A stretch of DNA of 64,000 nucleotides from a virus, in the IMG/VR virus record IMGVR_UViG_3300049016_000019, positions 238 through 64,237 of that record. One strand, given 5' to 3'. Of this stretch, positions 3,585-47,571 are shown piece after piece. A model generated the notes under the pieces. The model saw nothing but the letters and a program-made list of their open reading frames with translations, did not search any database and had not been told where the DNA came from. The first letter of the stretch is position 1. The number at the start of each line of letters is the position of its first letter. The position numbers and the translations under genes are program-made.

Positions 3585-4207
3585 TCCTCGTGTACGGCCC
3601 AGAATTTCGTGCCTAGTTCGCGCACCTCTCGGCTGTACGCGGGCATACCGTCTTTCGCCTTGACCTTTTCCAGCCGGGTGTACGGCTCGGGGAACTCCAA
3701 CGAGATGGCCGCATCATGGCATGTGACCACACGATCACAGACCGCGCACCGCATGCTCCGCCGTACGCGCTCAGAAAGGTGGTCTCTCGCAGGTACGACA
3801 GGAAACGGGCCTGTGTGCCCCTGTGAGCGCCTTTCGGGGGCAGGTGGGGGGAGGTACCCATCCGGAAGCCTGCCACGCGTCACAGGGGCTTGGAGAGGGT
3901 CTAGCGGCACCACCTCGACCCCCGTCGCGTCCTGGCCCGCGCACCCGCACCCGTGGGCGGCCACGACGACGCCGGAGCGCTCCACGCCCGGGGTCTCCCG
4001 CTCAAGCCTGTATGGCCGCCCGGAGCGCTCCGAGAGCCGGTACGTAGCCCGTCCGCCCAGCAGAGCCTCGCGGTAGCTCTCGGGCGTGCTCAGGGGCGCA
4101 GGATCGACCGATACGCGCAGTCCCCCGACCAGCGAGGTGAACACGTACGCCTTGCAGCGGTTGCACGTCGCCAGCTCGATATCGGTAGTGACCAGGTGCC
4201 TACTCAC
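3575..4207 (-). CDS. Hypothetical Zn-binding protein
   Basis: CNRC and CAVC motifs; GTG start re-called at 4207. Confidence 0.5.
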   Translation of the reverse strand: MSRHLVTTDIELATCNRCKAYVFTSLVGGLRVSVDPAPLSTPESYREALLGGRATYRLSERSGRPYRLERETPGVERSGVVVAAHGCGCAGQDATGVEVVPLDPLQAPVTRGRLPDGYLPPPAPERRSQGHTGPFPVVPARDHLSERVRRSMRCAVCDRVVTCHDAAISLEFPEPYTRLEKVKAKDGMPAYSREVRELGTKFWAVHEECM

Positions 4208-4352
4208 TGCAATGCTCTCCCCGAGCGACACGACGGCGATTGATCTCACCCTTCACGGTCACCAGCTCCTCATGGAGAGCCTTCAGCTCGCGTTCGATCC
4301 GACGGCGCGTGTCGTCCAGGTCGGAGTCAGGGACGCGTCTCATCCAGGCCAT
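4200..4352 (-). CDS. Small coiled-coil protein (50 aa)
   Basis: Hand translation MAWMRRVPDSDLDDTRRRIERELKALHEELVTVKGEINRRRVARGEHCSE. Confidence 0.45.
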   Translation of the reverse strand: MAWMRRVPDSDLDDTRRRIERELKALHEELVTVKGEINRRRVARGEHCSE

Positions 4353-4379
4353 GTTCATTTCAACTTTCTCGCGCGCATG

Positions 4380-4630
4380 CGCAGTAAGAGATAGAGAGAA
4401 TAAGTGTCACTATTGTCATATCTACAGTTCAGGGTACTTATGACAGCTTTTAGATCATTGTCGTGAGTGTCCTGAAGCGATACAGAGAGTGCACGCTCAG
4501 TGACTCGGTCACTCTCCGCACATACTGTCGTGAGTGATGTCGTGAGTAAGTCGCGAGTACTGACCTGCATTTATGACACATGAATCTCTCAGGACGAGAG
4601 AGAGAGAGGGAGGCGCTTTCCCCCCGCCTC
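4380..4630. promoter_or_regulatory. Putative replication origin (iteron-like)
   Basis: Noncoding, AT-richer, directly downstream of helicase; TGTCGTGAGT at 4459, 4526, 4538, near-match at 4550; AGTGAC-TCG-GTCACT palindrome 4499-4513. Confidence 0.55.
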
Positions 4631-4634
4631 ACCG

Positions 4635-5858
4635 TTACTCTCTGTGATTCAGAGGGTGTGTCCATACTGTCCCCGCTTGGGCCTCTCGTACCCTTTTGGA
4701 CTTGACCCCTAGCCTCTTCCTTGCACGCTGCAACATTCGTTCACTAAACTTCTTCCCGGCTTCCTTTATGTCCGCGCAGCGCGCTTCTCCACCCTGGGCG
4801 AGTAGGAACTGGTCCAGCCATCGAACGCAATCGTCTATGTTCGAGTGGCCGCCGTCCTGAAGATCGCCAAGCACGTCGGAGGCACGATCCATGATCTCTT
4901 CCAGCCATTCGATACGGGGCATGTGCGTGTACGTACCGTCGTCACACGGTATCTCTACGGAGTTGAGCCGAAATCGCAACGAGGGCAACAGATGCATCTG
5001 CCCGACGTTCAGCTTCTCGCACGACAGGATGCGCGCGTCGTCCTCCTCGGGGTCCATGACGAGCCCATGTACGGACCGCGCGACGTTGGTCTGCTCACTG
5101 GAGCCGATGACGGCCTCTATCACGTCCCGCGCGTCGGCCTTGCGGGTGTGCGCCAGTCCGAATATGGAGGAGTTCGTCCGCTCGGCGATGCCGTTCACGA
5201 TTTGATACGTGTGTCTGATCTCCCGCTGGTCGTTCGCCTTGCCGCTGACATTCGCGCTCAGCGGGTCCACGAAAGTAACCGCGATATTGTGCTCGCGAAT
5301 AAAGTCGGCGAGCCGCTGTTCATCGTGCGGCAGGCTCAGCGCATCCTTGCCTAGGGGCGTGTGTACGGTCAGGAAGAACACCCGAGAAAGGTCAGCGCCG
5401 TGGGCCAGCAAACGAGGAACAACAGTTTCTTCTATCGAGTCCTCATTTACCACGTAGCACACGTTCCGGGGCGCCCCGTAGAACTCCCCTTTCATGTCCC
5501 CTATGGTGATCCATGCGGCGAATTGCGCGAAGAGGGTGGATTTGGAAACGGCCCCTTTCCCGGCGAGAAGGGAGAGGCCGCCCAATGGTACTCTATCACG
5601 CCATAGCCATTTGGTACGACGCGTTTGGATGCTATCCGCACGAATAGCCCGGAATTGCCGAAGCGATTCCTCTTCCTCTTTCGCTATTTCCTCACCCTGT
5701 TTGCGAATACGCACCTTACGCGCTTCGCTTTTCGCCAATGCCTTGTCGTTGGCGAATTCCATGTTCTTTTGGAAGGCTTCCGCGAAAACCTCAGTACCCG
5801 GATAGGGCTTCCCCGACTCCTGTACCCAATCCGGTTGCTGAAAAGGGTAGGTCATCAC
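4635..5858 (-). CDS. AAA_25/RepA-like replicative helicase-ATPase with C-terminal winged-helix-like end
   Basis: WLWRDRVPLGGLSLLAGKGAVSKST (variant Walker A), VTFVDP Walker B, LAHTRK...IGS. Confidence 0.8.
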   Translation of the reverse strand: MMTYPFQQPDWVQESGKPYPGTEVFAEAFQKNMEFANDKALAKSEARKVRIRKQGEEIAKEEEESLRQFRAIRADSIQTRRTKWLWRDRVPLGGLSLLAGKGAVSKSTLFAQFAAWITIGDMKGEFYGAPRNVCYVVNEDSIEETVVPRLLAHGADLSRVFFLTVHTPLGKDALSLPHDEQRLADFIREHNIAVTFVDPLSANVSGKANDQREIRHTYQIVNGIAERTNSSIFGLAHTRKADARDVIEAVIGSSEQTNVARSVHGLVMDPEEDDARILSCEKLNVGQMHLLPSLRFRLNSVEIPCDDGTYTHMPRIEWLEEIMDRASDVLGDLQDGGHSNIDDCVRWLDQFLLAQGGEARCADIKEAGKKFSERMLQRARKRLGVKSKRVREAQAGTVWTHPLNHRE

Positions 5859-6154
5859 GCTTCCGCCCTGTGGTTACCGGTATTCTCGAACGCCAGAAAG
5901 GCCAACCTGTCCTCATGGCCGAACGGCCAATCGTTGTCCTCCATCAGCCAGTTCCAGCATTCGCGAGAGCATGTCGCGCCCGGCCCGACCACGTCATGCG
6001 AGGGCTTGAGTTCAAAGAAGTGCGGCCCCACGCTCATGACGCTCTCACGCCACTCGGGATAGTTCTCGATGTAGTCGATGACCGCAGGATCAGGAGGGGT
6101 CGGGGTCAAGTTCACTGCGCTCTCCGATATAGGTGTACGTCCAGGACTGGGCAT
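5855..6154 (-). CDS. Hypothetical protein
   Basis: 4-nt overlap with helicase start; true start uncertain. Confidence 0.45.
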   Translation of the reverse strand: MPSPGRTPISESAVNLTPTPPDPAVIDYIENYPEWRESVMSVGPHFFELKPSHDVVGPGATCSRECWNWLMEDNDWPFGHEDRLAFLAFENTGNHRAEA

Positions 6155-6323
6155 CGCCGTACCGGCGCCCGGCGGGGATGTAGACAGCCCCCCCGAACGC
6201 GATGAAGCGCACAGGGGGACGTGTGCGGGTCAGGATCACGACGCGCCCGTCAGCCGGACCGCCGGTGAGGTTGAGCCGGATCACAGTTCCTCCGTCTGAT
6301 GCTGACAGTCGGAGCAGACGCAC
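6090..6323 (-). CDS. Hypothetical protein (GGPxDG motif)
   Basis: LTGGPADGRVV...YTY; start probably downstream of the called one. Confidence 0.4.
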   Translation of the reverse strand: MRLLRLSASDGGTVIRLNLTGGPADGRVVILTRTRPPVRFIAFGGAVYIPAGRRYGDAQSWTYTYIGERSELDPDPS

Positions 6324-6415
6324 AGTCCCGTTTTGCGGTCAAGGCAGTCTGAGCACCGGCACTCGCACAGGCGGAAACGTATGTCGTCAACCAGGTGCGG
6401 CTCATCGTGGGGCAT
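6281..6415 (-). CDS. 7-Cys miniprotein A
   Basis: CECRCSDC-x7-CVCSDC; same spacing as ORF 7219. Confidence 0.55.
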   Translation of the reverse strand: MPHDEPHLVDDIRFRLCECRCSDCLDRKTGLCVCSDCQHQTEEL

Positions 6416-6593
6416 CGAGGTTCTCCGTGATCTTGGGCGTGAAATGCGGGTCCTTGATCCAGTGCTCGTGGCACCGGTCGCAGAGGAAGAACTGTGCACC
6501 GTGGCCCATGGTCCACCGCCATGTCGTCGGCGGGCAGGGGCCGCACTGGCAGTGACAACGGGGCCGCAGTGGGGGGTTGGTACGCCAGGGCAT
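6402..6593 (-). CDS. Small Cys-rich hypothetical protein
   Basis: CHCQCGPC...LCDRCHEHW; TGATG-type overlap with the WhiB gene. Confidence 0.45.
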   Translation of the reverse strand: MPWRTNPPLRPRCHCQCGPCPPTTWRWTMGHGAQFFLCDRCHEHWIKDPHFTPKITENLDAPR

Positions 6594-7775: not shown

Positions 7776-8048
7776 TCATCGGGCATGCTCCCAGTTGACT
7801 ATGCGGCCGATGCGCGCTTTGCATACATGGCATACCCAGCCGTTCGCGCCGCCGCCCTGCAAAGCAGTTGCCTTATCCCTATGTCCGATACAAACCAGTG
7901 AGGGATGAACGCACGGATGACTGAAGACGGCCCGGTACACCGCGACGCGGGGGCACGGACCCCAACAGCACTCGGCCTCCTCCACTGGCGCGGTGACCAG
8001 TTCTTCGCATGCACTGGCGGCGGCCTTGAGGGTTTCCTGGGGTGTCAC
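7776..8048 (-). CDS. Chimeric protein: DUF6197-like N-terminal helix plus Cys/His-rich body
   Basis: MTPQETLKAAA encoded by a 23-bp exact repeat of the 8045 gene; CC..PC, HPC.H..C..H, CHVC. Confidence 0.5.
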   Translation of the reverse strand: MTPQETLKAAASACEELVTAPVEEAECCWGPCPRVAVYRAVFSHPCVHPSLVCIGHRDKATALQGGGANGWVCHVCKARIGRIVNWEHAR

Positions 8049-8332
8049 AGTTCCTCCGCAGCGCGCTTGAGGGTGAGGATGACTTCCTCGGCCGTACGGT
8101 CTGGCTGATCGTTCCAGTCAGCGACGTTGACCCATCCCCCGGTGTGATACAGGTAACCGGTGAAGGCTTCACGCCCGGCGCTTTCGTAACCGGAGACAGC
8201 CAGAAGTGCGCCCGCTGCGCATACAGAGCCGTCCTTTTCCCTCATCATCCCCTGGGTCCAGCCGTGTTCGCTGATGTACTCAGCGGCGGCCTTGAGGGTT
8301 TCCTGTACGTCGGTCTTTCGCCGCTCCTGCAT
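8045..8332 (-). CDS. DUF6197-like protein, paralog 2
   Basis: TLKAAAEYISEHGWTQG...VCAAGAL...DWNDQPDRTAEEVILTLKRAA. Confidence 0.75.
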   Translation of the reverse strand: MQERRKTDVQETLKAAAEYISEHGWTQGMMREKDGSVCAAGALLAVSGYESAGREAFTGYLYHTGGWVNVADWNDQPDRTAEEVILTLKRAAEEL

Positions 8333-25799: not shown

Positions 25800-26143
25800 T
25801 GATCAAGGAGGAATGGCGCCGCACGATCACCGTAGTCCTGACCTATTCAGGCTGGGGCGGGGCCTTCGGACTCAGTCTATGGATGACGCTGTCCGGTAGG
25901 TCGGGCGACGACGGCTGGCGGTTGCTGGTCATCGTGTTTGTCGGTATCGCCATAGCGGCGGGAGCGGCACTGGGACGTATCCGATTGACCGAAGCGATAC
26001 TTGGCGCCTTCAGGGCCGGTATGGATACAGCCAATGAGCGATTGGAACATGTAGCCAAGGAGGCCGTCGAGGAAATCAAGCATGACACCAACGGGGCAAG
26101 TCCTGGAGACGCAACCACAAAAAGCCCCCCGCCTGACATGTAG
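25799..26143 (+). CDS. Two-TM membrane protein coupled to the repressor
   Basis: TAATG overlap; two hydrophobic helices. Confidence 0.7.
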   Translation: MIKEEWRRTITVVLTYSGWGGAFGLSLWMTLSGRSGDDGWRLLVIVFVGIAIAAGAALGRIRLTEAILGAFRAGMDTANERLEHVAKEAVEEIKHDTNGASPGDATTKSPPPDM

Positions 26144-26154
26144 TCAAGCGGGGG
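26119..26154 (-). terminator. Terminator at convergence of lysis and repressor operons
   Basis: CCCCCGC..TGAC/GTCA..GCGGGGG stem with T-run on the minus strand. Confidence 0.7.
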
Positions 26155-26165
26155 ACCGCGACGGC

Positions 26166-26405
26166 TTATTTATCAGGCGCCTTGCGTAGCCATGCTGGCA
26201 GGCGCGACTCAACGATGGGAGAGTTGAAGACGCGCACAACCCCTGCGGATGCAGCAAGTAGCGTAGCTACGCCTGGCGTGGATACCGGGTCCACGCCCAG
26301 ACCGGCGATGATGACAGGCATGGCCGCCGCCAGCGTGATGGCGAACTGGACAACGGAACGCAGCGTTCGCCTGCCCGAATCGTCCGGCCTCTTGTGACGT
26401 GCCAT
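26166..26405 (-). CDS. Holin (Streptomyces-phage type)
   Basis: RTLRSVVQ..TM..P..TM..RV..P.VE..LPAWLR; directly after endolysin. Confidence 0.75.
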   Translation of the reverse strand: MARHKRPDDSGRRTLRSVVQFAITLAAAMPVIIAGLGVDPVSTPGVATLLAASAGVVRVFNSPIVESRLPAWLRKAPDK

Positions 26406-27310
26406 TAGGTCACCTTCAGCCCCAGCCAGCCAAGCGTAGTCTTGCCGACAATCCCGTCTGCGTCAGAGCCGGTGAAGCCCTGCGCCTTCTGGGCGGCCTT
26501 GACGGCGGCCTTGGTCTGGTTGCCATAGTAGCCAGTAGCGCCCGATGGGATGCTGAACCCCTTTGCTATCAGACGCAGTTGCATCCTCTTGGTGTCACCG
26601 CTACTGAGTCCGTAGCGGATGTGTGACATCCGTACGGTCGGCGGGCCGGGCTTAGGGGCCGGGGGTTTGGCTGCTGGCATCTTGAGAACCTGCCCAACGC
26701 TGATCTTGTTCGGGTCCTTGAGTTCGTTGAGCAGCGCGATCTCGCGCCACACCGTGTGATGGTCCTTGGCGATAGCGGACAGCGTGTCGCCCGACTTGAC
26801 CACGTACTCATCCGTCTTGGGTTCCGGCACAGGTACGGGCTCTGGTTCGGTCTCGACGTACTTGGGACGCCCATAGCCCGCGATGGTGGCAGCGGTCCGC
26901 ACCCGGCGAGCGCACACGTCATCCGTGTTGCCCTCGATGGTGTAGACCTTATCACCGTCCACCTTCTCGACAACGCCAACGTGATCGATACGGGACAGGT
27001 CATTCGTGCCCGTCCAGTCAAAGAACACGATGTCCCCGCGCTTGATGCCGCCCACGTCCACGTGCCACTGTTCTTTTGAACGGAACTTAGCGGCATGCGA
27101 GACCGTGTAGGCATAGTAGTTGTCAAAGCACACCGCGAGGCCGTTGTCCGAGTGGTACGCCCAGTACGTCACGGCAGCATTACACCAAGCGAAGTTGCCC
27201 TGATAGCCAGACAGGTTGACCTTCGTACGGTACCAAGCCTGAATCTTGTTGGGCTCGCCCATGCCCAGACTCTTCTTTGCCTCATCAAGCATGGCCTCAA
27301 CGCCGCTCAT
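26405..27310 (-). CDS. Endolysin: CHAP + LysM + peptidoglycan-binding domain
   Basis: AWCNAAV, GDIVFFDW, IDHVGVVE, TIEGNT; YVVKSGDTLSAIA LysM; TGYYGNQTKAAVKAAQ...DGIVG. Confidence 0.92.
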   Translation of the reverse strand: MSGVEAMLDEAKKSLGMGEPNKIQAWYRTKVNLSGYQGNFAWCNAAVTYWAYHSDNGLAVCFDNYYAYTVSHAAKFRSKEQWHVDVGGIKRGDIVFFDWTGTNDLSRIDHVGVVEKVDGDKVYTIEGNTDDVCARRVRTAATIAGYGRPKYVETEPEPVPVPEPKTDEYVVKSGDTLSAIAKDHHTVWREIALLNELKDPNKISVGQVLKMPAAKPPAPKPGPPTVRMSHIRYGLSSGDTKRMQLRLIAKGFSIPSGATGYYGNQTKAAVKAAQKAQGFTGSDADGIVGKTTLGWLGLKVT

Positions 27311-27471
27311 GAGCCCTCCCCCCGAAAGAAACCAAAATCATCCGGCTCGCCGTACGCCTCGTGGAGAAGTTCTTCCTCGTTCTCGACCGTAGGCCCGTTG
27401 TCGGTGCGGCGGATGCACTTAGCCTGATCCGCCTGATTCATGTCCTCGTTGACAGGTCGGGGGTTGCCCAT
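27307..27471 (-). CDS. Small acidic protein coupled to endolysin
   Basis: DQAKCIRRTDNGPTVENEEELLHEAYGEPDDFGFFRG; ATGA overlap with endolysin. Confidence 0.6.
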   Translation of the reverse strand: MGNPRPVNEDMNQADQAKCIRRTDNGPTVENEEELLHEAYGEPDDFGFFRGEGS

Positions 27472-27481
27472 GCTGTCATCC

Positions 27482-28030
27482 TCACTTGATCGGTGGGTTG
27501 TTGGCGACAAACTCGGAGAGTCGCTGAACGGCCTCGCGATACTTCTGCTCCATCGCTGCCAGTTCACCTACACGACCCTCCAACTTGTTCCGGTTGGCCT
27601 CAAGTTCGCCAATTGCGGCCAGTTGACGGTCCCGTGCTGCGCGGATTTCCGCTTCGGCTTCCTGGGCGAGTTGTGCGTTGGCCTGCTGAGCCTCCGCTCG
27701 CGCTGCGGCCATGATGCGATCCGCTTGCACGTGCGCATCGCTGACCACGTCGTCAGCGGTCCTCTGGGCAAGCTCCAGAATGCGCACCGATGCCTGAGTG
27801 GGAGACTCGGGCGGGGGTTCGATGGGAATCGGGGGAAGGAAGTTCTGGGATTCGATCTTGCGCATCTCCGTGGTGCTACGTATCGCTGCGTCCTCTGCGC
27901 GCCTGAGCGCAGCTTCATAGTCCGCAGCGATCTGATCGAGGAAGTCGTCTACCTCGTTCTGGTCGTAGCCTTCACGGAGCCTGACGGCTGTGAACGTCTT
28001 GTCTTTGATGTCCTGAACTGTCAATGCCAT
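27482..28030 (-). CDS. divIVA-like: DivIVA/Wag31 homolog
   Basis: MALTVQDIKDKTFTAVRLREGYDQNEVDDFLDQI N-domain plus second coiled coil ILELAQRTADD...LEGRVGELAAMEQKYR. Confidence 0.88.
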   Translation of the reverse strand: MALTVQDIKDKTFTAVRLREGYDQNEVDDFLDQIAADYEAALRRAEDAAIRSTTEMRKIESQNFLPPIPIEPPPESPTQASVRILELAQRTADDVVSDAHVQADRIMAAARAEAQQANAQLAQEAEAEIRAARDRQLAAIGELEANRNKLEGRVGELAAMEQKYREAVQRLSEFVANNPPIK

Positions 28031-28055: not shown

Positions 28056-30111
<2,056 letters not shown>

Positions 30112-45111: not shown

Positions 45112-47571
45112 TTACGCCTTGACCTTCAGCACACGGAACGCGCCGTCAACCAGCACCTTGGAGCTGTTACGCCACACGGCAAGCAGTCCACGCTGACCGG
45201 ACGGGCGGTTGTTGGCCGTAGCGAACAGGTGGGGAACAAGCTCCACCTGCATACCGACGCGGTCCACAATCAGGAACTGCTGAAAGTCGCCAAGCAGCAG
45301 AAGCTTGGTGCCAGACGCCACAGAATATGCCGCCATCTCCGAAGCCTCGAACGCCTGGTAGCCGATAAGCTGCGGAGGCGTCCCATCCGAGAAGCGCGCC
45401 CACATCTCCGGACCGTCAGTTGACGCAAGCTGCCTAATGGTGTTGTACATCGACTTGTTGGCAAGGAACTTGGCGTTCCGGCGCCACCTGGGCGGAAGCG
45501 CATCGTCCAGGGCGTACACATCCCCGGCCGCGAAAGAGAGCGAGCCAGCCGTTTCTACCTCACTACCGGCACCCAGGCCCGCGACAACACCCTCGGGGAA
45601 CACGGTCGTACCAACGCCGTTCACAAACGCGTCGGCCTCTTCTGTGGCCTTGGCGTCCGTCAGAAGGCGGCCCATCTCAGCCCGCATCTGCGACCAGTCC
45701 TGGTCGATCTCGAACGAGAACGGGATGAAGCCGGTAACCCTGGTCGGGGTGACCTCGGGCTGGACCAGCGTGGGCTCATTCAGCCCAACCTCTGCCGCCT
45801 CCGCCGAACGGGACACGGTAATGCCAGCGGAGCTAACACCCTGCCAGGTCTTACCGACAATCTGCTCAACCCGAGAGATCGAGCGCAGCGGGTCAACGAC
45901 GCCATCCGAAGTCAGAATGACCGTGGGGTCAAGCTGATACGGAACAGCGAACCCGCCAGTAGCACCCGCGCCAACAGCAAGCGCAGCACGCTCTTCGCTG
46001 GTCAGGGTATTGGTGCTGAGCGTCAGCATGGCCTTGCCGAACGCACGGTCATAGACCGGCGAACCAGTCGCCAGGATACGGCGGGCAAGCGTGCCGTCCT
46101 TGTCGTCCACGTTGTCCAGCAGGCGGGCCACAGACTCCTGTGCCGCCTCGCGGGAGGTGCTACCGGGGAAGCGGGCCTGCTCCACGGCGCGCATGGCGTT
46201 GTCACGGTACAGCATGCCAAGCTCGTCAACGGAGCGGGCCTGCGACCGGATCTCGCCCAGGTCGTAGATGTTGCTAGGGCGACGCACGCTGCGAGAGGAC
46301 GACTTCCGCACGGGGCGGTCGAGGTTGCTCTCGTCACCAGCAAGCGACTTCAGCTCAGCGGCGCGCTCAGTAGCAGCGATGATCGCGTCGTCGTGCTCCA
46401 GGTACTCCTTGCGAAGACTGTTCCACTCGCCCTGAGTCTCCTCGGGAAGGGTGGCACCGCTGAACTCGCGGTCGATCTCAGCAAGGCGAGACTTGATCTC
46501 GCTCTGGCGAGACACCCTCTCCTCAACCGTCATAGGCTCATTCATGGGGACACTTTCCTTTCGTGTCTCGTTAGTTTCTGTTTCTACGTGTCCCGATGAG
46601 GTGCCCTCGCGGGCGGCGTCCTCGGGGTTCTCACCTTCGGGGGAGGTGCCCTCTTGGGCGGCGTCCCCTTCTGGAAGTTCTGTGGTTGCGTCAGCCGCCT
46701 TCTCGTCGTCCATCTGGACGTTGTACTTCTTGAGCGCGGCCTTGATCTTTCCCTTGATCTTGGCAAGCTGCTCAGGCGTGTACTTAGCGGCGTTCTTCGG
46801 CATGTTGATGTAGGACCAGGCGGCCTTGCAGTGATCCTCGCTGTCCAGGGGATAGCGCTTCTTGCCGTCCTTCTGGTAACCGGGGTCGGCGTAAGTCACG
46901 TCGCCATAGGGCTTCTTGGGATCGTCGGCTCGCTCGTCGTCATCCGCTTCAGCCGTCCGCCGGTACTCGTCCAGCAGCGCCTCGCGGTCCTCTTCAGTGA
47001 TGGACCGAACGCCGACACTCGTCTCGGCATACGCCGGGAAGACGACAGGGCCAGCCTCGAACAGTTCAACCTCGCGGATGGTACGGGCCAGAGGGCCGCG
47101 CTCCCCCGCATCCCAGAGCAGCCGTCCAAGCTCCTCGTCCCGCACGGAGTTTCCGTCGATGTCATGCCAGGCGTCGCGAACTACCCTGAAACGAAAGGAC
47201 ATGCCCGAAATTGCTCCGCCTTCAATTGCCTGGCGAATGGGCTCTACGACGTCGTTTGGGAAAAGTCGTGCCGAGACGAACAGACCTTGCTCGTCCTCTC
47301 GGATGGACTCAAACCGGCCTATCGGGATACTGCCCGTCCGTACGTCGTGTCCGTGATCAAACTGGAGAACGGGCGTACGCTCTGTGATGGTCTTCGCGAA
47401 GGCGCCCCGCGCAATACGTTCCGTGAATCTTCCCTCGTGAGAGTTGATCTCCGTAGGGGTGTCGAAAACGGCGGCGTAACCCTCAAGGGTCCTGCCGTCC
47501 CCGCTCGCTCGCTCTTCTGAAGTTACAGGCGTGAAGTCAACTGCCCGCAGGCAGAGGCGATTGGGTTTCAT
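45112..47571 (-). CDS. Fused HK97-type prohead protease + DUF6582-like domain + major capsid protein
   Basis: GRTLEGYAAVF..LQFDH..GMSFRF..LFEAG.V.FPAY; PYGDVTYADPG..RYPLD..AAWSYIN; GGFAVP..E.AEV..LLLGDF. Confidence 0.92.
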   Translation of the reverse strand: MKPNRLCLRAVDFTPVTSEERASGDGRTLEGYAAVFDTPTEINSHEGRFTERIARGAFAKTITERTPVLQFDHGHDVRTGSIPIGRFESIREDEQGLFVSARLFPNDVVEPIRQAIEGGAISGMSFRFRVVRDAWHDIDGNSVRDEELGRLLWDAGERGPLARTIREVELFEAGPVVFPAYAETSVGVRSITEEDREALLDEYRRTAEADDDERADDPKKPYGDVTYADPGYQKDGKKRYPLDSEDHCKAAWSYINMPKNAAKYTPEQLAKIKGKIKAALKKYNVQMDDEKAADATTELPEGDAAQEGTSPEGENPEDAAREGTSSGHVETETNETRKESVPMNEPMTVEERVSRQSEIKSRLAEIDREFSGATLPEETQGEWNSLRKEYLEHDDAIIAATERAAELKSLAGDESNLDRPVRKSSSRSVRRPSNIYDLGEIRSQARSVDELGMLYRDNAMRAVEQARFPGSTSREAAQESVARLLDNVDDKDGTLARRILATGSPVYDRAFGKAMLTLSTNTLTSEERAALAVGAGATGGFAVPYQLDPTVILTSDGVVDPLRSISRVEQIVGKTWQGVSSAGITVSRSAEAAEVGLNEPTLVQPEVTPTRVTGFIPFSFEIDQDWSQMRAEMGRLLTDAKATEEADAFVNGVGTTVFPEGVVAGLGAGSEVETAGSLSFAAGDVYALDDALPPRWRRNAKFLANKSMYNTIRQLASTDGPEMWARFSDGTPPQLIGYQAFEASEMAAYSVASGTKLLLLGDFQQFLIVDRVGMQVELVPHLFATANNRPSGQRGLLAVWRNSSKVLVDGAFRVLKVKA

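What the first reader, a model, noticed from the sequence alone, without database searches (positions are those of the whole stretch)
27482..28030. Phage-encoded compact DivIVA lacking the host linker and C-terminal tail
Seen: DivIVA N-domain (RLREGYDxxEVDxFLD) and a second coiled coil, ending at 182 aa. Established: host DivIVA has a long C-terminal region phosphorylated by AfsK that modulates branching. Inference: this is a phosphorylation-blind mimic that co-polymerises with host polarisomes, either splitting or poisoning them or targeting lysins to hyphal tips.
Basis: partly seen in the sequence, partly recalled or inferred. Interest (0 to 1): 0.87.

Follow-up and report, generated by a model that had tools for sequence, protein, structure and literature searches.

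The report
Minimal DivIVA in phage lysis module
An uncultured actinobacterial phage carries a stripped-down copy of DivIVA, the bacterial cell-pole organiser, wedged between its wall-cutting enzymes; it belongs to an undescribed phage-only branch of the family whose layout matches a laboratory-made minimal DivIVA that makes hyphal tips burst.

Summary
ORF 27482-28030 (minus strand, 182 aa) is a true DivIVA homologue. Its N-terminal domain scores above Pfam and NCBIfam cut-offs. Its C-terminal coiled coil aligns with Wag31 and with Streptomyces DivIVA (40% identity), but the intercoil linker and C-terminal tail are missing.

New here: it is not a one-off host capture. It sits in a clade of 30 metagenomic proteins, all 161-200 aa, separated from 43 cellular DivIVAs (support 95/93). 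In all 13 contexts I could read, the gene lies 8-31 bp downstream of a peptidoglycan hydrolase (signal-peptide-like N-terminus in all 12 complete ones), usually upstream of the endolysin and a holin-like gene.

The clade is absent from PHROGs and from genuine phage genes among 50,697 deposited phage records, and no paper on it was found. The linkage runs one way: 0 of 80 other viral Rpf-type hydrolase loci carry it, and a near-identical module (L038) lacks it. It is therefore an accessory gene.

At 182 aa it matches the engineered 186-aa DivIVAmin of Kitasatospora, which causes hyperbranching and tip bursting. Most likely it deregulates or marks polar growth zones to help lysis. This is inferred, not shown. 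The host is unknown, though features are Streptomyces-like.

The parts
27482..28030 (-). Phage minimal DivIVA (182 aa): membrane-binding N-domain and CC1 (1-61), short linker (62-78), CC2 (79-177)
28056..30011 (-). Exported multi-domain wall hydrolase (651 aa): signal peptide with a basic GRRSKPK n-region, Rpf-type transglycosylase, DPBB (weak, below cut-off), LysM, NlpC/P60, M23. Its stop lies 25 bp before the DivIVA start
27307..27471 (-). Small acidic protein (54 aa, pI 4.25), starting 10 bp after the DivIVA stop and overlapping the endolysin start. This family travels with CHAP endolysins even where DivIVA is absent
26405..27310 (-). Endolysin (301 aa): CHAP, LysM and PG_binding_1 domains. 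The CHAP domain is 57-70% identical to endolysins of Streptomyces griseus phages
26166..26405 (-). 79-aa protein with two hydrophobic segments, a holin candidate (phrog_4316, function unknown)
26123..26157 (-). Intrinsic-terminator-like hairpin (15 pairs, 10 G-C, T run) that closes the co-oriented module. No minus-strand terminator-like site lies inside the module

Best explanation
Shown: the gene encodes a genuine DivIVA-family protein. It has a conserved membrane-binding N-domain and a homologous second coiled coil, and it lacks the unstructured intercoil and C-terminal regions. It belongs to a clade of 161-200-aa proteins that were phage-borne in every context read. It lies co-oriented with the wall hydrolases at the end of the tail/lysis gene string, with no terminator-like site in between. 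Inferred: late in infection the protein binds the cytoplasmic face of the membrane at curved growth zones (hyphal tips or poles, branch sites, cross-walls). There it acts as an unregulated 'minimal' polarity protein. It either occupies these sites in competition with host DivIVA or nucleates deregulated assemblies. Wall synthesis there becomes faulty while the phage's exported Rpf/NlpC/M23 hydrolase and its endolysin attack the wall, which favours bursting at tips. It is an accessory enhancer or site-selector of lysis, not a core lysis component.
For: Homology and architecture. One clade of 30 short proteins against 43 cellular ones, UFBoot 95 / SH-aLRT 93. The nearest cellular relative checked (P0037) sits in the canonical yggT-divIVA-ileS context, so the ancestor was a true divIVA. 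In 13 of 13 contexts the gene directly follows a wall hydrolase (gaps of 8-31 bp), and all 12 hydrolases with a complete N-terminus have a signal-peptide-like start. This holds across at least three phage genome layouts. The N-domain is as conserved within the phage clade (59%) as among cellular proteins (64%) despite roughly 33% overall identity, which indicates purifying selection on membrane binding. There is no internal minus-strand terminator-like site, and a strong one follows the holin-like gene. Experimental precedent: the engineered 186-aa DivIVAmin of Kitasatospora viridifaciens (N + CC1 + CC2) localises in foci and supports polar growth, but causes irregular wide hyphae, more branching and frequent tip bursting (PMC12585849). 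Inactivating Wag31 with phage Fruitloop gp52 gives bulging poles (PMC7474061).
Against: No localisation, interaction or expression data exist. Complex prediction and read mapping were not available. The host is unknown. DivIVAmin's phenotype was seen when it was the only DivIVA in the cell, not alongside the wild type. CC1 and the C-terminal end, which carry Actinomycetota-specific motifs needed for polar growth (PMC12585849), are poorly conserved in the phage clade, so the protein may not engage host partners at all. In one context (L017) the hydrolase-DivIVA pair lies beside replication genes, not the endolysin. That fits less well with a role limited to the lysis stage.
Confidence: 0.4

Rival explanations
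1. Secretion-site scaffold. The phage DivIVA recruits the pre-protein of the upstream signal-peptide hydrolase (perhaps through its basic RHxKP n-region) to polar or septal membrane, so that export and wall cutting are localised. Listeria DivIVA does this for the autolysins p60 and MurA.
For: Strict adjacency to a secreted hydrolase in 13 of 13 contexts, including L017, where the pair has moved away from the endolysin together. A conserved basic motif with a nearly invariant proline lies in the hydrolase n-regions. Listeria precedent: PMC3478244. GpsB, which shares the N-domain fold, appears among the sequence matches.
Against: The same kind of hydrolase occurs without any DivIVA in 80 of 80 other viral loci. 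A near-identical module, L038, also lacks it. The hydrolase therefore does not need it. No interaction test could be run. Adjacency may simply reflect a permissive insertion point.
Confidence: 0.2
2. Superinfection exclusion or inter-phage competition. By altering or masking host DivIVA at the poles, the protein blocks entry or development of other phages that depend on polar DivIVA, as Fruitloop gp52 does against Rosebush.
For: Published precedent that phages manipulate Wag31/DivIVA for exclusion (PMC7474061). The accessory, patchy distribution of the gene is typical of competition genes.
Against: The gene lies in the late structural/lysis operon rather than with early or lysogeny genes, and the window's phage has no integrase. 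Its fixed link to a wall hydrolase is not explained.
Confidence: 0.1
3. Organiser of phage replication or assembly. The protein acts as a polar anchor that tethers phage DNA, replication factories or assembling virions to the membrane, as DivIVA tethers RacA or ParB.
For: DivIVA proteins are general polar scaffolds (PMC3478244). In L017 the gene sits next to a primase-polymerase gene.
Against: In 12 of 13 contexts it is inside the lysis module, and no conserved DNA-binding partner gene accompanies it.
Confidence: 0.07
4. Functionless passenger: a recently captured, truncated fragment of host divIVA.
For: Phage records can carry host divIVA as apparent transduced DNA, for example Enterococcus phage VEsP-2.
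Against: The ORFs are intact and form a deep clade (about 33% mean identity). N-domain residues are invariant and the position is fixed across different phage types.
Confidence: 0.03

Closest known systems
Cellular DivIVA / Wag31 of Actinomycetota (for example the Streptomyces 388-aa protein P0058)
   Same: Membrane-binding N-domain with the ...VRLREGYD..EVD.FLD motif, CC1, and CC2 starting with the LAQ.TAD motif. Identity is 38-41% over the aligned parts.
   Different: Phage-borne, and 161-200 aa against a cellular median of 248. It has no PQG-rich intercoil region and no phosphorylated tail. CC1 and the C-terminal end have diverged. It lies in a lysis module, not the dcw cluster, and scores far below the Wag31 equivalog cut-off (38.9 against 260 bits).
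Engineered DivIVAmin of Kitasatospora viridifaciens (Lubbers et al. 2025, PMC12585849)
   Same: Same domain content (N + CC1 + CC2) and nearly the same length (186 against 182 aa). It is the only experimentally studied protein with this architecture in a filamentous actinomycete, where it causes hyperbranching and tip bursting.
   Different: It is an artificial deletion of the host gene with native coiled-coil sequence. The phage protein is a natural, highly diverged lineage that would act alongside wild-type host DivIVA.
[quoted passage not shown]
   Same: A DivIVA functionally coupled to exported NlpC/P60-type wall hydrolases.
   Different: It is a host housekeeping protein, there is no gene adjacency, and the coupling in the phage is only inferred.
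Mycobacteriophage Fruitloop gp52 (PMC7474061)
   Same: A phage gene product that acts on the DivIVA/Wag31 system and changes pole shape.
   Different: gp52 is described as a Wag31-binding inhibitor used for superinfection exclusion, not as a DivIVA relative.
GpsB
   Same: Homologous N-domain (E 0.002-0.02 to solved GpsB chains).
   Different: From my own knowledge, GpsB has a short trimerising C-domain and is found in Bacillota. The phage protein has the long DivIVA-type CC2.

Membership tests
DivIVA family (Pfam PF05103 / TIGR03544) | N-terminal DivIVA domain scoring above the curated cut-offs | tested here: met
   PF05103 44.6 bits against 28. TIGR03544 49.6 bits against 22. 2WUJ/2WUK are the best solved-structure matches.
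DivIVA family (Pfam PF05103 / TIGR03544) | Architecture: N-domain and CC1, a linker, then a long second coiled coil homologous to DivIVA CC2 | tested here: met
   AF2 model with helices at 24-61 and 79-177, pLDDT 91.4. Residues 81-168 align to Wag31 model positions 147-234. End-to-end alignment with cellular DivIVAs.
DivIVA family (Pfam PF05103 / TIGR03544) | Structural match of the whole model to solved or predicted DivIVA structures | tested here: inconclusive
   Foldseek found no PDB match. Wag31, DivIVA and GpsB rank at the top of AFDB Swiss-Prot, but with E of 0.28 or worse. This is expected for extended helices.
DivIVA family (Pfam PF05103 / TIGR03544) | Binding to negatively curved membrane, and oligomerisation into dimers and tetramers | not testable with these tools
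Only conservation of loop residues (R17 in at least 90% of rows; F13, G21, Y22 invariant) supports membrane binding.
Wag31/DivIVA orthologue (NCBIfam NF050102 equivalog; essential polar-growth organiser) | Score above the equivalog cut-off | tested here: not met
   38.9 bits against a cut-off of 260.
Wag31/DivIVA orthologue (NCBIfam NF050102 equivalog; essential polar-growth organiser) | Chromosomal dcw-cluster context (sepF-yggT-divIVA-ileS) | tested here: not met
   The gene lies between a phage hydrolase and an endolysin. The cellular relative P0037 does show the canonical context.
Phage lysis cassette component | Co-oriented and closely spaced with the endolysin and a holin-like gene, with no internal terminator, and conserved in that place in related phages | tested here: met
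   Gaps of 25 and 10 bp, then two overlapping starts, with a terminator after the holin-like gene. Same placement in 12 of 13 contexts.
Phage lysis cassette component | Required by the cassette (present wherever the cassette occurs) | tested here: not met
   L038 has the same hydrolase, small acidic protein, CHAP endolysin and holin-like gene without DivIVA. 0 of 80 viral Rpf-type hydrolase loci carry it (positive controls 10 of 10).

The most novel reading that the evidence does not exclude
Phages of filamentous or polar-growing actinobacteria have evolved their own minimal DivIVA as a new class of lysis accessory factor. It hijacks the host's cell-polarity system and turns growth zones (tips, branch points, cross-walls) into the places where the wall fails. 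It would do this by replacing regulated polarisomes with unregulated ones, by delivering the exported hydrolase there, or both. Lysis of a hyphal host would then be spatially programmed by the phage.
Probability: 0.3. Interest if true: 0.8.

Novelty: new variant of a known kind. Interest (0 to 1): 0.66.

Why it matters
DivIVA is the essential polarity determinant of Actinomycetota, and how phages lyse tip-growing, multicellular hyphae is poorly understood. A conserved phage lineage of minimal DivIVAs embedded in lysis modules would be, as far as my searches reach, the first case of a phage encoding its own copy of the host polarity organiser. It offers 30 natural, highly diverged 'DivIVAmin' sequences that show which residues of the N-domain and CC2 are indispensable. 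It can also be tested directly with an existing assay, reversion of Kitasatospora delta-divIVA L-forms. If it does direct or promote tip bursting, it would be a new kind of lysis accessory gene and a tool for perturbing polar growth.

Tried and rejected

2. Foldseek against the PDB gave nothing. AFDB Swiss-Prot ranked Wag31, DivIVA and GpsB first, but not significantly.

3. PHROGs has no family for the window protein or for three other clade members.

4. tblastn against 50,697 phage records gave only N-domain hits in Enterococcus and Listeria records and an unannotated gut-virome contig. The one I inspected (VEsP-2) lies beside DNA annotated as a transduced bacterial gene, so I reject it as a phage homologue.

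5. I considered the small acidic downstream protein as the DivIVA partner and rejected the idea. The same family precedes the endolysin in Streptomyces phage LazerLemon (gp34-gp35) and in L038, neither of which has DivIVA.

6. An obligate hydrolase-DivIVA partnership is weakened by the reverse census (0 of 80).

7. Host identification failed. The endolysin scan returned only distant hits such as Amycolatopsis and Paenibacillus. Terminase relatives point to Rhodococcus equi phages at 50-55%, while endolysin relatives point to Streptomyces phages at 57-70%.

8. No integrase or serine recombinase was found.

9. Literature searches for a phage-encoded DivIVA homologue found none.

Full report
**1. 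The observation**

The window is a tailed-phage genome. It carries a large terminase, a portal, a prohead-protease/capsid fusion, a 1447-aa tape measure with an SLT domain and a DUF5047 tail protein, all on the minus strand. It lies in a 67,057-bp IMG/VR record that CheckV rates 100% complete.

The ORF at 27482..28030 (minus strand) encodes 182 aa. It matches:
- Pfam DivIVA above the gathering score (44.6 against 28 bits, residues 3-59);
- the NCBIfam DivIVA domain (49.6 against 22 bits);
- the solved B. subtilis DivIVA N-domain.

Residues 81-168 align to positions 147-234 of the Wag31 model. The protein also aligns end to end with cellular actinobacterial DivIVAs, including the LAQ.TAD motif that opens the second coiled coil. 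An AlphaFold2 model built on 30 relatives (pLDDT 91.4) gives helices at 24-61 and 79-177, joined by a 17-residue linker.

**2. What is missing**

I compared the protein with a Streptomyces DivIVA of 388 aa (named by its source). Identity is 40% over the aligned parts. The phage protein lacks the roughly 85-residue PQG-rich intercoil region, the last turns of CC2 and the roughly 85-residue C-terminal tail.

Short cellular DivIVAs also exist. One example is a 228-aa protein in a canonical yfiH-ylmE-(195-aa gene)-yggT-divIVA-ileS context. Others are 202-205-aa proteins of Actinomyces and Microbacterium. Compactness alone is therefore not phage-specific.

**3. A phage clade**

An exhaustive search of 1.84 billion representative proteins gave 1657 hits at E of 0.001 or better.
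- A quick tree of 132 single-domain hits placed the window protein among 30 proteins, all 161-200 aa, apart from 102 cellular-type proteins.
- A careful tree (73 rows) keeps these 30 on one side of a branch with UFBoot 95 / SH-aLRT 93.

None of the four members tested matches a PHROG family. A tblastn search of 50,697 deposited phage records found only N-domain hits in six records: two Enterococcus phages, three Listeria phages and one unannotated gut-virome contig. The one I inspected lies next to DNA flagged as a transduced bacterial gene. I found no paper describing a phage-encoded DivIVA homologue.

Caveats:
- The clade was delimited from the first tree, after the fact.
- The tree is unrooted, so a single acquisition is not proven.
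- Context is known for 13 of the 30 members.

**4. Context**

In the window the order along the direction of transcription is:
- tail genes;
- a 651-aa hydrolase with a signal-peptide-like N-terminus (Rpf-type transglycosylase, LysM, NlpC/P60, M23; a weak, below-cut-off DPBB match);
- a 25-bp gap, then DivIVA;
- a 10-bp gap, then a 54-aa acidic protein that overlaps the next start;
- a CHAP-LysM-PG_binding endolysin, overlapping the next start;
- a 79-aa protein with two hydrophobic segments;
- a strong terminator-like hairpin.

No terminator-like site on the coding strand lies inside this string.

I read the context of 12 further clade members: L005, L006, L013, L015, L016, L017, L019, L020, L021, L022, L023 and L024. 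In all 13 cases the gene directly upstream, 8-31 bp away, is a peptidoglycan hydrolase. That hydrolase carries an Rpf-type domain in 10 cases and otherwise an SLT or NlpC/P60 domain. Every one of the 12 with a complete N-terminus has a basic n-region, a hydrophobic core and an AxA-like site. In 12 of 13 an endolysin follows.

In L017 the hydrolase-DivIVA pair lies beside a primase-polymerase gene instead. The carriers include at least three genome layouts, some with integrases. The window's own phage has none.

**5. The linkage is one-way**

I scanned IMG/VR with an alignment of the hydrolase N-termini and kept the 80 best loci. I then searched every ORF of at least 40 aa in them (about 4 kb on each side of the match) with an HMM of the phage clade. 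None matched. The same pipeline recovered 10 of 10 positive controls.

Many of these hydrolases sit upstream of the terminase. One locus, L038, has an Rpf domain 78% identical to the window's. It carries the same module (hydrolase, small acidic protein, CHAP endolysin, holin-like gene) without DivIVA. The small acidic protein also precedes the endolysin of Streptomyces phage LazerLemon, so it belongs with the endolysin and not with DivIVA.

DivIVA is therefore an accessory insertion at one fixed point of a widespread lysis module.

**6. What selection keeps**

| Region | Phage clade | Cellular proteins |
|---|---|---|
| N-domain | 59% | 64% |
| CC1 | 17% | 36% |
| Start of CC2 | 39% | 47% |
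| C-terminal end | 22% | 46% |

Values are mean pairwise identities. Invariant residues all lie in the N-domain, apart from L85 and A88. Membrane binding seems to be the constrained function. The oligomerisation and partner-binding surfaces have drifted, which argues weakly against obligatory co-assembly with the host protein.

**7. Mechanism**

The decisive comparison is with published work. Lubbers et al. (PMC12585849) built a 186-aa DivIVAmin of Kitasatospora viridifaciens (N + CC1 + CC2, with no intercoil region and no tail). It still supports polar growth. It also produces wide irregular hyphae, altered branching and frequent bursting at the tips. The deleted tail holds the known phosphorylation sites, AfsK being one kinase.

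The phage clade is a natural version of this architecture and is expressed next to wall hydrolases. My best reading (0.4) is that it deregulates or competes for the host's polar growth zones so that the wall fails there during lysis.

The main rival (0.2) is a Listeria-like role in bringing the exported hydrolase to the right membrane site (PMC3478244). The adjacency favours this reading. The many hydrolases without DivIVA count against it. Exclusion of other phages (precedent: Fruitloop gp52, PMC7474061), anchoring of phage replication or assembly, and a functionless capture are less likely.

**8. Host**

The host is not determined.
- Terminase relatives are Rhodococcus equi phages at 50-55%.
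- The CHAP domain of the endolysin and its small acidic partner are shared with Streptomyces griseus phages at 57-70%.
- The module itself contains no LysB-like gene; I did not screen the rest of the genome for one.
- The N-domain loop reads ...VRLREGYD, as in the Streptomyces and Kitasatospora proteins.

A Streptomyces-like host is plausible but unproven. Statements about AfsK therefore remain conditional.

**9. Verdict**

This is a new, phage-borne variant of a known family with a testable link to lysis.

Noticed in passing
window 27307-27471 (-); L038 4988-5134; L015 6536-6703; L019 1774-1995; L022 6593-6766; L023 6539-6673; L036 4301-4504: A family of 44-73-aa acidic proteins (pI about 4.0-4.4 in the five computed) shares a C-terminal motif of the form E.(A/E)LL.E.(F/Y/W)GEPDEDG.Y. 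Its gene ends at or overlaps the start of the downstream endolysin gene (a CHAP type where the domain could be read), also in the cultured Streptomyces phage LazerLemon (gp34-gp35). It has no Pfam, NCBIfam or PHROG match. It may be an endolysin chaperone or regulator.
   Followed up: partly
window 29991-30011 (-) and 26385-26405 (-); N-termini of the hydrolases in L005, L015-L017, L019, L021-L024: The signal-peptide n-regions of the DivIVA-linked hydrolases share a basic (G/A)(R/K)H.(K/R)P(K/T) motif with a nearly invariant proline. The window's holin-like protein also starts MARHKRP. The same kind of start appears in many other viral Rpf-type hydrolases that lack DivIVA, so it is not specific to the pair. 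Its role is unknown.
   Followed up: partly
L009 about 7920-8309, L011 7989-8153, L012 7968-8168, L010 1680-2381: Other IMG/VR viral contigs encode different DivIVA-domain proteins. L011 and L012 have mini-proteins of about 54-66 aa that consist of the N-domain only, L009 has one of about 130 aa, and L010 has a protein of about 233 aa. DivIVA-domain genes in viral contigs may therefore be more varied than the clade described here.
   Followed up: no
L040, L046, L051, L053, L060, L061, L074 (about 4000-6500); L004 5153-6229: In many actinophage contigs, and in Rhodococcus phage REQ1, a signal-peptide Rpf-type transglycosylase gene sits just upstream of the large terminase gene rather than in the lysis module.
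   Followed up: no
window 45112-47571 (-): A single 819-aa ORF fuses a prohead serine protease (S78), DUF6582 and the HK97-type major capsid protein.
   Followed up: no
L036 3446-3820 (LazerLemon gp32): In the DivIVA-less Streptomyces phage LazerLemon, a 124-aa protein precedes the lysozyme-like gene of the lysis region. It has one N-terminal hydrophobic segment followed by what looks, by eye, like a coiled coil. It could be a membrane-attached coiled-coil analogue occupying a similar niche.
   Followed up: no
L037 1-1579 (Enterococcus phage VEsP-2): The 'cell division initiation protein DivIVA' annotated in this deposited phage lies next to a feature annotated as a transduced incomplete bacterial gene at the record's start. 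It is probably host DNA, not a phage gene.
   Followed up: partly
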